Of a stretch of 47,442 nt of DNA, positions 34,801 through 37,800 are shown in pieces. Source of the DNA: a virus (taxonomy: Duplodnaviria; Heunggongvirae; Uroviricota; Caudoviricetes). Position numbers: made by a program. The DNA lies in the IMG/VR virus record IMGVR_UViG_2913112809_000004, positions 1-47,442 of that record; one strand, given 5' to 3'. Positions within the stretch are counted from its first letter, which is position 1. Every line of letters begins with the position of its first letter.

Positions 34801-37800
34801 AGTGTTAATGCTTGAGCAGACAGTAAAAAACATCAATTCGCGCTTTGGCTGGCGCAACACCCGTAAGCTTCTTGGTTCATCACTGGGTGTAACAGCCCAA
34901 GGATTACCCCTTTTTATTGAACGTGTAAATAGTGTAGTTCAGCATAATCCCGACCTAAAAGACAGGATCGACGATTTCTGGAAAGGTTTAATTTTTAGCG
35001 GGAATCGATTACTTTCTATTTATAAAATCACCGATGAAGACGTAGCAAAATTACAAACAATTTTCACAAATCAGAAAAAGGACAATAGCCCCTTCTCAGA
35101 AAAATACCCAACGCCTTTATCCAGAGAGGAGCTGTTAGTTGCTGATACTGAGCTGCATTTTGCTGAACTACGTCAAGATATCATTCGTGACAAACAAATT
35201 GACACCGCTGTTTTTTTATCCAAAGCGTATTACACTGAAGTGATAGAACTTGACCCAACACATCTTAGCGATGCGGGTATGGAATTACGTGCTAATGGCG
35301 GAGAAATAAAATGCAAAACACGCCAAGTCACGCAATGCTTTAATACCATCATGCTAATGCCTGCAGAAAAAATATTAATTCTTACGATTGATTTATCTAT
35401 CCTTCCAAGAAGTGAATCACAGCCTCAACAATACCTTGTGGCTAAATTTATAAAAGAAGAAGCTGGCGTTATTTTAAACAATCCTCTTGAATTATTTGGT
35501 TCAATACAAGATCTTTACGAAAAAGTAGATGGCAGAATTTCTCATGTATCTTTTATCACCTCAGATGGCAATACAAGTTCTTTAAAACTCAAACCAAGTC
35601 AAAAGTGTTTGCGTCAAGATGTTTACCATCATAGTGGAGAGTCCGCAAGCCCAATACTGACAAAGTTTAAGTTGGGAAAAGTTTGGGATTTACCACAAAA
35701 TTCTTCACATATTTTATCAGTAGAGTTAATATTACCAGGGAAAAGGACGATGCTTGATAATCCTAGAATTAGGTTGCATGAAGCAATTGCGAAGAACTGT
35801 AACAATATTGATTCGATTATATTTATTGTTGAAAAAATATTGGATTCTGTTAAGTCCTGTGAAGAGAAAAGAAGAGCGAAATCATCAGGCCATAAATGAA
35901 AAAGAGTATATATCACGACATTATCACGCAAATAGAGCAGGATTTTAATGATCCTGCTCGCCGTGTGTGTCGTGATCTTTTTCTTTTTCTGGTTAGTAAA
36001 GATGCTAAAAATATCAATCACTTTACATACAAAACTCTTATCAATGGTTTGACCTATCTAACTGACACGAAAGATGACTATATCCTGCTAATAAAAGCAA
36101 CAGATTATTTATCTAGCTATAAAGCACATCTATTGGATATGCATTTTCAATACATTGATAATTTAACGGAAGAACCAATCCCAGTTGAAGATGATCTTAT
36201 TTCCTATGCTTTAGACACAGGAAGTTTTTACCATCCAGAAACTGGCGAATTGGTTGAAAATTTTAGCCAGTATCTTTATCCATACTTTACTCCTTCGAGT
36301 CTTTTGGAGAGTCTGCATGAGTGATGTAAACATCTGTACTGCAGATCTTCAATCATTAATTAGAATGGATCCTGAATTTAGGGGAATGGTTCAAAGAAAA
36401 TTAGCTGCAGACAAAAATATTTTTGTAAAGCAACTCTATGAAGATTTAGACGACGCTATTCAGAATTTAGAAAATGACAAACACTTCTATCAAGATGCCA
36501 AGTGGGGAGAGGACGAGCTAACAGCGTCGATCAAAAATTTCCTGAAAGGTAGGTTTTATGATGTTGAACATGATACTCAACATGGCGGTCACGTTGATTT
36601 ATTAGTTAAACATCAATTCGGAAAATTCGAATGGATTGGTGAAGCAAAATTATGGAGAGGCCCCAAGTCTATTCACAATGGCTGGATTCAGCTAACCGAA
36701 CGTTACGGCACGGGTACGTCACGTGACGATCATGGAGGAATTCTAATTTATATAAAGTCTGACAAATCAGCAGTAAAATTCAATGAATGGAAAGAATTTT
36801 TCTCTACGACTGTTTCGGACGCAGAAATTGAAGCGGAAGGCTCTCCCCTCCGCTTTAAGAGTATCTCAAAGCATCCAGCAACAGCGCTTCCATATCATGT
36901 AAGACACATGGGAGTATCCTTATACCATTACACTGGTAAAAAATCCGCAGACTCTTAACTGGTAATTGCTATATATCCGCTCAGAAAACCTAAGGCTTTT
37001 TGCAATCTTTTACGAATTGTTCCATCTGAACATCCTTGTTGCTTTGCAATAGCACGAAGAGATAAACCAATCACGAAATGAGCAACAATTAACTCATATT
37101 CTTGTTGCTTATATCTTTCTAACCTAAGGATACTAATGTCAATCACTCGCCCTTCATCATTGCTGCACTGACGACGTAATTTTTTGCCATGAGGAAAAAT
37201 ATTTTTTATATTTATCAGCTATTTCCTGCCAATATATAGAACTATTACCAGCCACAACCCAAGCCCCCCAACCGTCTAAAAGCTCACATATATCAAAATT
37301 ACTATCCATCTGATTTTTATTCTCTATTTTGAAATAACCAAGCAGCATTCTAGCCATTGTTGTTATTTCTATACTCGTAACTGATTCATAGGCATCAGGA
37401 GAAATAATTCTCCCATCACTTAATGCCCTATCACTAAGATTTGCTATTTCCAATAATCGTTCTTTCGTTATTTCCATTATTATCTCCACCGCCCTTTCGG
37501 GCGGTCTCCTTATTATTTGAGGGTACAGAACCCCCTCCTGTTAAGGATTTAATAAAAATCACTTCTGATTTAATTTTTCAGTGTTTTGTTGTCAGGTGGT
37601 TTATAGCCTTTATTCTTCGGCCTTATTTCTCAGCCATACACAAACCGGGCCATCTTCGGTGTCATGTATCGAACCAATAAACCATCCATCGCCCTCTGGT
37701 CGTTCCGGTTCCCATGCAGAAATATCAGCATCACACGCATCAAGGTCAGCACATCCTTCGTCTCTGAAGCAGAGGACGCATTGAAGATTATTTTCCGCCA

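What the first reader, a model, noticed from the sequence alone, without database searches (positions are those of the whole stretch)
34808..36958. AT-rich, translationally coupled three-gene operon ending in a PD-(D/E)xK-like nuclease: candidate uncharacterised anti-phage defence system
Seen directly in the sequence:
- Three plus-strand ORFs (363, 142 and 213 aa) are chained by overlapping stop/start codons: ATGA at 35896-35899 and ATGAGTGA at 36317-36324.
- They sit in a block that is visibly much more AT-rich (roughly one-third G+C by eye) than the roughly 50% G+C phage backbone.
- They run opposite to the surrounding early genes.
- Gene 3 carries ...GGHVDLLV-13 aa-WIGEAKLW..., the D...E-x-K arrangement of restriction-endonuclease-fold nucleases.
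- Genes 1 and 2 show no motif I can recognise: no Walker A, HEPN, TIR, SIR2 or RT signatures.

Context: the operon lies in the nin/replication accessory slot of a lambdoid prophage, next to a hok/mok toxin locus and a decayed Q-like regulator. From established knowledge, prophage accessory slots with this compositional signature often carry defence cargo.

Inference: this is a sensor/adaptor plus nuclease-effector defence system that I cannot match to any named system by eye. A resemblance to poorly characterised three-hypothetical-protein systems cannot be excluded.
Basis: partly seen in the sequence, partly recalled or inferred. Interest (0 to 1): 0.8.

Follow-up and report, generated by a model that had tools for sequence, protein, structure and literature searches.

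The report
DS-21-type three-gene anti-phage nuclease system
The three coupled genes are real and are a diverged copy (51-59% identical) of DS-21, an E. coli anti-phage defence system shown to work in 2026 whose mechanism is still unknown; here its largest protein is predicted to fold like the DNA-binding proteins RdgC and lambda RexA.

Summary
Three + strand genes (363, 142 and 213 aa) overlap by ATGA and ATGAGTGA. They lie in the most AT-rich block of the window (37.0% vs 47.0% G+C), antisense to the prophage genes, between hok/sok and a frameshifted Q-family gene.

The defence reading is supported, but the system is no longer unnamed. All three proteins align full-length (51%, 53%, 59% identity) with the three proteins of DS-21 (working id TOXO). 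DeWeirdt et al. (Science 2026) cloned DS-21 from E. coli and found it defensive, mainly against phages Bas1 and Bas11. DS-21 is absent from PADLOC-DB 2023, Pfam and NCBIfam, and that paper gives no mechanism.

New here:
- Gene 3 models as a BamHI-like PD-(D/E)xK nuclease, with E65, D94, E109 and K111 invariant.
- The gene 1 family has at least 499 clusters at 50% identity.
- Every context sampled keeps the same A-B-C layout, across several prophage types, integrase/resolvase islands, a Tn7-like element and a toxin-antitoxin cluster.

Likely mechanism (inferred): a DNA-binding sensor and a small acidic adaptor control a nuclease effector.

Verdict: new member of a known, mechanistically uncharacterised kind.

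The parts
34646..34807 (+). Upstream non-coding leader of the cassette, which presumably holds its own promoter. A strong Shine-Dalgarno sequence (AAGGAAG) lies 6 nt before the g1 ATG.
   Evidence: Homology shared with thousands of E. coli hok/sok loci stops at about 34646. From there on the sequence occurs only in cassette-bearing genomes. Sequence read. No convincing sigma-70 consensus was found on the + strand here by the simple scan, so the promoter position is not established.
34808..35899 (+). Gene 1 (363 aa), orthologue of DS-21 protein 1. It is predicted to have an RdgC/RexA-fold and is proposed to be the DNA-binding sensor subunit.
35896..36324 (+). Gene 2 (142 aa, pI 4.7), orthologue of DS-21 protein 2. 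It is a small acidic protein, proposed to be an adaptor or inhibitor between sensor and nuclease.
   Evidence: 53% identity to WP_021552536.1. It is acidic in all 13 homologues examined (pI 4.6-5.4). It is translationally coupled on both sides. Homologues are present in every cassette sampled, including the most distant ones. The DS-21 paper's HHpred lists DUF5939 (prob 0.94) and a winged-helix match (prob 0.8). hmmscan did not reproduce these here.
36317..36958 (+). Gene 3 (213 aa), orthologue of DS-21 protein 3. It is a PD-(D/E)xK (restriction-endonuclease-fold) nuclease and the proposed effector.
36955..37489 (-). Frameshifted Q-family antiterminator gene, convergent with g3 and overlapping its 3' end by 4 nt. 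It is co-inherited with the trio but is not a functional part of the system.
   Evidence: Pfam Phage_antitermQ matches both fragments. The frameshift is visible against the intact E2348/69 copy. The gene is found only in the 14 E. coli complete genomes that carry the trio, and no empty site exists. Widely shared homology resumes at about 37488.

Best explanation
The cassette is a member of the DS-21 family of three-gene anti-phage defence systems. It is carried as an AT-rich, antisense accessory gene block (a 'moron') in a lambdoid prophage.

Shown, by homology and models:
- All three proteins are full-length orthologues of an experimentally defensive E. coli system.
- Protein C is a PD-(D/E)xK nuclease with an intact, invariant active site.
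- Protein A has the RdgC/RexA/Iml3-Chl4 fold, which is known elsewhere as a dimeric, sequence-non-specific DNA-binding scaffold.
- A, B and C are always encoded together, in the same order, with overlapping or nearly abutting genes.

Inferred mechanism:
1. A, B and C are made in fixed proportion from one transcript and form a complex in the lysogen.
2. Protein A, probably as a dimer, binds DNA and detects a feature of infection. This could be phage replication or recombination intermediates, free DNA ends, or a phage protein bound to DNA, by analogy with RexA.
3. The small acidic protein B links A to C and/or keeps C inactive.
4. On triggering, C cuts DNA and stops phage replication. Whether this happens by destroying phage DNA or by killing the cell (abortive infection) is unknown.
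For: Identity with DS-21:
- BLASTP gives 51% (E 1e-140), 53% (6e-47) and 59% (2e-92), each over the full length.
- DS-21/TOXO is listed as defensive and replicated. The log10 EOP reductions are 4.48 on Bas1 and 2.0 on Bas11. Plaques are smaller on Bas3, Bas9, Bas67 and T3 (PMC13092281 Tables S6-S8).

Nuclease:
- Fold and invariant E65/D94/E109/K111.
- The paper's HHpred gives PDDEXK DpnII-MboI at prob 0.96.

RdgC/RexA fold of protein A:
- Two independent structure comparisons agree.

Obligate trio:
- All three genes were found in every locus with room.
- Distant cassettes, in which A is only about 18-25% identical, still carry recognisable B and C: L014, L016, L057, L058, L061, L062.
- The g2/g3 overlap of 4-8 nt is kept in most cassettes, and g1/g2 overlap or lie no more than 10 nt apart.

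Mobile accessory character:
- Low G+C and antisense orientation.
- Contexts: lambdoid prophages, in the window between hok/sok and a Q-like gene and elsewhere between Q and holin; a Yersinia prophage with the trio beside tail genes; a phage contig with a GpA-type terminase.
- Contexts, continued: Vibrio and Shewanella integrase/resolvase islands; other integrase- or resolvase-adjacent contigs; a Tn7-like element next to a DS-23 homologue; a toxin-antitoxin cluster.
Against: - No experiment exists on this particular variant, which is only 51-59% identical to the tested DS-21. Its phage range may differ, or it could be inactive in this host.
- Protein A is not consistently basic (pI 5.0-8.8 among homologues), so DNA binding is not obvious from charge.
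- The most conserved stretch of A (residues 263-285; R269, H274 and G277 are at least 90% conserved in 125 diverse members) is unmodelled (pLDDT < 50). It could be an enzymatic or ligand-binding site that this model ignores.
- No structure was obtained for protein B.
- Complex formation, the trigger and the nuclease target are all untested.
Confidence: 0.6

Rival explanations
1. Toxin-antitoxin-like abortive module. Protein C is a DNase toxin held in check by the small acidic protein B, acting as a DNA mimic or immunity-type inhibitor. Protein A is the trigger-sensing or B-releasing component. Infection frees C, which degrades host and phage DNA alike and kills the cell.
For: - B is acidic in every homologue (pI 4.6-5.4).
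- B is translationally coupled to C by a conserved 4-8 nt overlap.
- One distant cassette lies in a cluster of toxin-antitoxin genes: PIN, MNT/HepT, YhaV, ParE.
Against: - There is no evidence that C alone is toxic or that B binds C.
- The gene order (B before C) is compatible with this reading but not diagnostic.
- The DS-21 paper's HHpred suggests a winged-helix element in B (prob 0.8), which points to nucleic-acid binding rather than mimicry.
- This is largely a sub-variant of the best explanation, not an exclusive alternative.
Confidence: 0.2
2. Restriction-like direct cleavage. C is a sequence- or modification-specific endonuclease of the BamHI/DpnII type. It attacks incoming phage DNA constitutively. 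A and B act as specificity or regulatory subunits rather than infection sensors.
For: - The narrow, phage-specific protection of DS-21 (strong on Bas1 and Bas11, weak on Bas3 and Bas9) could reflect differences in DNA sequence or modification between phages.
Against: - No methyltransferase lies in or next to the cassette in the window or in any of the contexts sampled as a conserved partner. An unmodified-DNA-cutting enzyme would therefore be lethal.
- C is only 213 aa and has no separate DNA-recognition domain apart from an N-terminal helical bundle.
- The strict retention of a 360-aa RdgC-fold partner is not a feature of known type II or type IV enzymes.
Confidence: 0.12
3. Not primarily defence. 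It would be a prophage-benefit module acting on host recombination or SOS, or on the lysis-lysogeny switch. RdgC inhibits RecA, and RexA biases the lambda switch.
For: - The fold of A resembles RdgC and RexA.
- RexA has a RexB-independent role in the lambda switch (PMC11077077).
- The cassette is tightly linked to a Q antiterminator gene in lambdoid prophages.
Against: - The homologous DS-21 protects MG1655 from lytic phages when cloned outside any prophage.
- The same trio occurs outside prophages, in a Tn7-like element, integrase and resolvase islands and a toxin-antitoxin cluster, where a lysis-lysogeny role makes no sense.
- A dedicated nuclease partner is not expected for a RecA modulator.
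Confidence: 0.05

Closest known systems
DS-21 (working id TOXO), DefensePredictor screen, DeWeirdt et al., Science 2026 (PMC13092281). Proteins WP_001532221.1, WP_021552536.1, WP_001557682.1.
   Same: Three genes in the same order and of the same sizes (365/140/211 vs 363/142/213 aa). Each pair aligns over the full length at 51/53/59% identity. The nuclease catalytic residues are the same. Both are prophage-borne, convergent with a Q antiterminator gene, and antisense to the phage late genes.
   Different: This is a diverged subtype. DS-21 lies in a different prophage backbone and position (between Q and holin), whereas the window copy lies between hok/sok and a decayed Q. The window variant has not been tested. 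The paper gives no mechanism, and for protein 1 it lists only a weak HeH/SAP match (prob 0.64). The RdgC/RexA-fold assignment is new here.
Bacteriophage lambda RexAB exclusion system
RdgC, recombination-associated DNA-binding protein (PDB 2owl; Pfam PF04381)
   Same: It is the best and only significant structural match of gene 1 by two methods, and the alignment covers most of the chain.
   Different: Only 8-9% identity, and no Pfam RdgC hit for gene 1 or for 125 family members. The relative domain orientation differs (rmsd 6.5 A, TM about 0.3). RdgC is a housekeeping stand-alone gene with no nuclease partner.
BamHI/BglII/BstYI/OkrAI-type and DpnII-MboI-type restriction endonucleases
   Same: Gene 3 shares the PD-(D/E)xK core with E...D...ExK catalytic residues.
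   Different: 8-14% identity. There is no cognate methyltransferase. Gene 3 has an extra N-terminal helical bundle (residues about 8-58). It is always paired with proteins A and B.
Lamassu (LmuA PDDEXK effector, LmuB SMC-like ATPase, LmuC)
   Same: Both are three-gene systems with a PD-(D/E)xK effector. The DS-21 paper's HHblits links protein 3 to LmuA_effector_PDDEXK (prob 94.7, coverage 0.55).
   Different: There is no SMC/ABC ATPase, no Walker A motif and no PADLOC Lamassu model hit. Protein A has a different fold.

Membership tests
DS-21 defence system (DeWeirdt et al. 2026) | Three co-directional genes in the order A (about 365 aa), B (about 140 aa), C (about 211 aa), tightly coupled | tested here: met
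   363/142/213 aa with overlaps of 4 and 8 nt. DS-21 coordinates and accessions are in Table S6.
DS-21 defence system (DeWeirdt et al. 2026) | Full-length sequence homology of each protein to the DS-21 proteins | tested here: met
   BLASTP: A 51% (E 1e-140), B 53% (E 6e-47), C 59% (E 2e-92), all colinear and near full-length.
DS-21 defence system (DeWeirdt et al. 2026) | Protection against phage when expressed in E. coli | not testable with these tools
   Shown only for the DS-21 homologue: Bas1 10^4.5-fold and Bas11 10^2-fold (Table S7). It has not been shown for this variant.
PD-(D/E)xK nuclease superfamily (gene 3) | Restriction-endonuclease-like alpha/beta core fold | tested here: met
PD-(D/E)xK nuclease superfamily (gene 3) | Catalytic acidic residue(s) plus the (D/E)xK motif, conserved | tested here: met
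   E65, D94, E109 and K111 are invariant in 32 homologues. The D...EAK motif is retained in the L057, L058, L061 and L062 cassettes.
PD-(D/E)xK nuclease superfamily (gene 3) | Metal-dependent nuclease activity | not testable with these tools
   Needs biochemistry.
RdgC family (Pfam PF04381) (gene 1) | Sequence match to the RdgC profile | tested here: not met
   No Pfam hit for gene 1 or for any of 125 diverse family members. Gene 1 is therefore not filed as an RdgC family member; only the fold is similar.
RdgC family (Pfam PF04381) (gene 1) | RdgC-type fold (base and centre domains) | tested here: met
RdgC family (Pfam PF04381) (gene 1) | Ring-shaped dimer that binds DNA non-specifically | not testable with these tools
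   No multimer prediction or biochemistry was available.
RexAB phage exclusion | RexA-like sensor protein | tested here: inconclusive
RexAB phage exclusion | RexB-like polytopic membrane effector encoded next to it | tested here: not met
   No hydrophobic segment compatible with a transmembrane helix in g2 or g3. The g1 maximum (KD19 1.74 at 181-199) falls on predicted beta-strands.
Lamassu | LmuB SMC-like ATPase subunit | tested here: not met
   No PADLOC or Pfam hit and no Walker A motif. Gene 1 has a different fold.
Type II restriction-modification | Cognate DNA methyltransferase linked to the endonuclease | tested here: not met
   There is none in the cassette. Dam-type methyltransferase genes lie several kb away in some lambdoid hosts but are absent from most contexts.

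The most novel reading that the evidence does not exclude
DS-21-type systems would be 'Rex-like' immune sensors. In this reading, an RdgC/RexA-fold protein recognises a DNA structure or a protein-DNA complex made by replicating or recombining phage genomes. It then switches on a soluble PD-(D/E)xK nuclease through a small acidic adaptor. That would make the RdgC/RexA fold a widespread phage-sensing module (at least 499 protein clusters at 50% identity). It would also give a simple, soluble model for what RexA-like proteins sense, which has stayed unclear for lambda Rex for decades.
Probability: 0.3. Interest if true: 0.6.

Novelty: new member of a known kind. Interest (0 to 1): 0.35.

Why it matters
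For genome annotation:
- These three 'hypothetical proteins' can now be labelled as a DS-21-type defence system.
- They occur in EPEC E2348/69, several STEC and ETEC strains, many Salmonella Typhimurium assemblies, and Enterobacter, Yersinia, Vibrio and Shewanella.

For mechanism:
- DS-21 was validated but left unexplained.
- The prediction that its largest subunit shares the RdgC/RexA DNA-binding fold gives a concrete, testable hypothesis: DNA-structure sensing coupled to a nuclease.
- It also links a newly found system to the oldest known phage-exclusion system.

For prophage biology:
- The trio travels with a Q antiterminator gene.
- In other lambdoid prophages it occupies the slot between Q and the lysis genes.

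Tried and rejected
Searches that gave nothing useful:
- PADLOC-DB v2.0 (2023) gave no system match. The only hit was a marginal one of g3 to candidate PDC-S54 (E 0.0016, 60 residues).
- Pfam and NCBIfam gave only chance-level hits.
- PHROGs matched three families of unknown function.
- PDB sequence and profile searches gave nothing relevant. Rab GTPase hits to the g3 profile at E about 0.006 were judged spurious, because they lie outside the catalytic region.
- The GenBank phage collection had no DNA match. The only protein match was a weak partial hit in an Acinetobacter phage.
- The pattern scan of species-representative genomes failed with the g3 alignment and found a single locus with the g1 alignment.
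- The afdb50 fold library was not available.
- Literature searches by RefSeq accession, 'RdgC-like', 'DS-21' and 'DUF5939' found no paper on the mechanism.

Ideas considered and rejected:
- Membership of RexAB, Lamassu, type II R-M and the RdgC family. In each case a defining feature was tested and not met.
- Swapping of the effector among distant family members, which would have supported a modular sensor. It was not observed: all 12 contexts sampled keep the same nuclease.
- An 'empty site' that would define the insertion. None exists in 5426 E. coli genomes, because the flanking Q-like gene is part of the co-inherited block.
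Full report
**1. Observation**

- g1 is 34808-35899 (363 aa).
- g2 is 35896-36324 (142 aa).
- g3 is 36317-36958 (213 aa).
- The overlaps are ATGA at 35896-35899 and ATGAGTGA at 36317-36324.

The cassette is 37.0% G+C (GC3 29-33%) against 47.0% for the whole window. It lies in the lowest 2.5% of equally sized windows, and the window's G+C minimum falls inside it.

The neighbours are on the minus strand:
- a Hok toxin gene (PF01848) with its sok RNA (Rfam RF01794, 97 bits) immediately upstream;
- a Q-family antiterminator gene immediately downstream, convergent with g3 and overlapping its end by 4 nt.

That Q gene is frameshifted in the window but intact in E. coli E2348/69. 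Further along are DUF977 and replication genes on one side. On the other side are DUF1367, YbcO and the prophage's functional Q (DUF1133/antitermQ), followed by two tRNAs. So the lambdoid-prophage context is right.

Two details need correcting. The quoted motif strings are separated by 8 residues, not 13. And the unit that is co-inherited is larger than the trio (section 5).

**2. What databases say**

- None of the three proteins matches a PADLOC-DB 2023 system, a Pfam family or an NCBIfam model.
- PHROGs places them in three families of unknown function.
- PDB sequence and profile searches are empty or spurious.
- RefSeq calls all three 'hypothetical protein'.
- The window's DNA version occurs in 14 of 5426 complete E. 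coli genomes, including EPEC E2348/69.
- The exact proteins are also on record for Escherichia sp. E4742.

**3. It is a conserved three-gene unit**

Homologues of g3 and g1 occur in Enterobacterales, Vibrio, Photobacterium and Shewanella. In every fetched locus with room for them, all three genes are present in the same order. The g2/g3 overlap of 4-8 nt is kept in most cassettes, and g1/g2 either overlap or lie no more than 10 nt apart.

A profile search of 1.84 billion representative proteins shows that the g1 family is much larger than word-based searches suggested. It has 499 clusters at 50% identity with E <= 0.001, nearly all about 340-400 aa and matched end to end. None of 125 diverse members hits Pfam or PADLOC.

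Six distant cassettes were looked up: L014, L016, L057, L058, L061 and L062. Their A protein is only about 18-25% identical, or undetectable by tblastn. All six still have the same A (355-407 aa), B (126-139 aa), C (192-240 aa) layout. Profiles confirm B and C as homologues, and the D...ExK motif is retained. No case of a different effector was seen.

The contexts are diverse mobile elements:
- lambdoid prophages, with the trio between Q and holin in E. coli, Salmonella Typhimurium and Erwinia;
- a Yersinia prophage, with the trio beside tail genes;
- a phage contig with a GpA-type terminase;
- Vibrio and Shewanella integrase/resolvase islands;
- other integrase- or resolvase-adjacent contigs;
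- a contig encoding a P4-type primase together with tail genes;
- a Tn7-like element;
- a cluster of toxin-antitoxin genes;
- 34 IMG/VR viral contigs.

**4. It has a name**

RefSeq accessions were taken from the E. coli Q-holin variant and searched in the supplements of DeWeirdt et al., 'DefensePredictor' (Science 2026, PMC13092281). That variant turns out to be their system DS-21, working id TOXO:
- NZ_QOXJ01000032.1, coordinates 7805-9963;
- proteins WP_001532221.1, WP_021552536.1 and WP_001557682.1;
- 'Predicted novel defense gene', defensive TRUE, replicated TRUE.

In their plaque assays the log10 EOP reduction was 4.48 on Bas1 and 2.0 on Bas11. Plaques were smaller on Bas3, Bas9, Bas67 and T3. 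From my own knowledge of the BASEL collection, Bas1-Bas13 are T1-like Drexlerviridae.

The window's proteins align with DS-21's over their full lengths at 51%, 53% and 59% identity.

DS-21 is not mentioned in the main text of that paper. Its only annotations are HHpred lines:
- protein 1: HeH/SAP, residues 16-48, prob 0.64;
- protein 2: DUF5939 (prob 0.94) and winged helix (prob 0.8);
- protein 3: PDDEXK DpnII-MboI (prob 0.96).

No later paper on it was found. The mechanism is not.

**5. The block and its partner Q gene**

A query joining the two flanks found no 'empty site' in 5426 E. coli genomes.
- The hok/sok flank is present in 4243 genomes, but homology stops at about window 34646.
- The Q-like flank occurs only in the 14 cassette-bearing genomes.
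- Common homology resumes at about 37488.

The co-inherited AT-rich block is therefore about 34646-37488: leader, trio and Q-family gene.

In the other lambdoid contexts the trio likewise abuts, tail to tail, the 3' end of the phage's Q gene. The window's arrangement looks like a Q-plus-DS-21 module imported from another lambdoid phage into the region between replication and nin genes. Its redundant Q then decayed.

**6. Structures**

*Gene 3.* It was modelled from 32 homologues, with pLDDT 91.5 and pTM 0.88.
- It has an N-terminal helical bundle followed by a restriction-endonuclease core.
- E65, D94, E109, K111, Q125 and Y130 are invariant.

*Gene 1.* It was modelled from 27 homologues, with pLDDT 83 and pTM 0.81.
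- Foldseek independently returns RdgC as the only significant PDB hit (E 1.6e-5, prob 1.00). Global TM is low (about 0.3), which indicates different domain orientation.
- The family's most conserved segment (263-285; R269, H274 and G277 at least 90% conserved in 125 members) is the only poorly modelled part.

It is acidic in all homologues.

No protein has a transmembrane segment or a Walker A motif.

**7. Mechanism**

Shown:
- homology to a functional defence system;
- a nuclease fold with an intact active site;
- an RdgC/RexA-type fold in the largest subunit;
- obligate co-occurrence and translational coupling.

Inferred:
- A binds DNA, probably as a dimer, and senses an infection-specific DNA structure or protein-DNA complex.
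- B bridges A and C, or inhibits C.
- C cleaves DNA once triggered.

I put about 0.9 on 'DS-21-family defence system' and about 0.4-0.5 on this particular division of labour.

The rivals are:
- a toxin-antitoxin-like reading, in which B is an inhibitor of a toxic DNase;
- constitutive restriction-like cleavage, disfavoured by the lack of any methyltransferase;
- a non-defence role in recombination or the lysis-lysogeny switch, disfavoured by the cloned DS-21 phenotype and by occurrence outside prophages.

**8. Comparison and novelty**

The cassette passes every testable membership criterion for DS-21. It fails defining criteria for other families:
- RexAB: no RexB-like membrane protein.
- Lamassu: no SMC ATPase.
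- Type II R-M: no methyltransferase.
- RdgC as a sequence family: no profile match.

It is therefore a new, diverged member of a known kind that is mechanistically uncharacterised.

The added value here is threefold: the RdgC/RexA-fold assignment, the size and invariance of the family, and the Q-linked mobility.

Interest is moderate to low as a discovery. It is somewhat higher as a lead: a soluble 'Rex-like sensor plus nuclease' could make the long-standing question of what RexA-type proteins sense experimentally tractable.

Noticed in passing
window 36955-37489 (-), with block boundaries at about 34646 and about 37488: The Q-family antiterminator gene convergent with g3 is frameshifted here but intact in E2348/69. 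In 5426 E. coli genomes it occurs only together with the trio, and no empty site exists. In Salmonella, Erwinia and other E. coli lambdoid prophages the trio always abuts the 3' end of the functional Q gene, between Q and holin. This suggests a Q-plus-DS-21 module that moves by recombination between lambdoid phages.
   Followed up: partly
L016 9166-11316 (-) and L017 3592-5742 (-): In a Tn7-like element (TniQ, AAA_22), a distant DS-21-like trio lies next to a 716-aa SEC-C-domain protein. That protein is 33% identical (E 3e-75 over 400 aa) to DS-23, another system validated in the same 2026 paper. Together they form a small defence island. An Xre-type HTH gene sits directly upstream of that trio.
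   Followed up: partly
window 35594-35662 (g1 residues 263-285): The most conserved stretch of the g1 family is CLRxDxYHHGGExASPILTK. R269, H274 and G277 are at least 90% conserved across 125 members that share only about 20% identity. It is the one region that AlphaFold models with pLDDT < 50. It may be a partner-binding, ligand-binding or catalytic loop that the RdgC analogy does not explain.
   Followed up: no
window 34087-34136: A perfect 9-bp tandem repeat (AACAAATAC x 5.6) lies between the hok terminator region and the 86-aa ORF at 33690-33950. Its function is unknown.
   Followed up: no
window 31710-31863 (-): tRNA-Gly(tcc) and tRNA-Thr(tgt) genes lie downstream of the prophage's functional Q gene (32188-32856, DUF1133/antitermQ). 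The corresponding E2348/69 prophage carries tRNA-Arg and tRNA-Ile plus an ISEc13 at that position.
   Followed up: no
L038 5491-6578 and L048 10001-11088 (IMG/VR contigs): In two viral contigs of the 98%-identity group, g1 matches only in part (residues 1-222 and 1-188) while g2 and g3 are intact. This suggests that g1 is disrupted in some strains.
   Followed up: no
L014 12477-14074 (-); L061 5275-5691 and 8356-10188: Distant cassettes sit beside toxin-antitoxin-type genes: a HipA-like kinase pair in L014, and PIN, MNT/HepT, YhaV and ParE-like genes in L061. This is consistent with clustering among defence and addiction genes.
   Followed up: no
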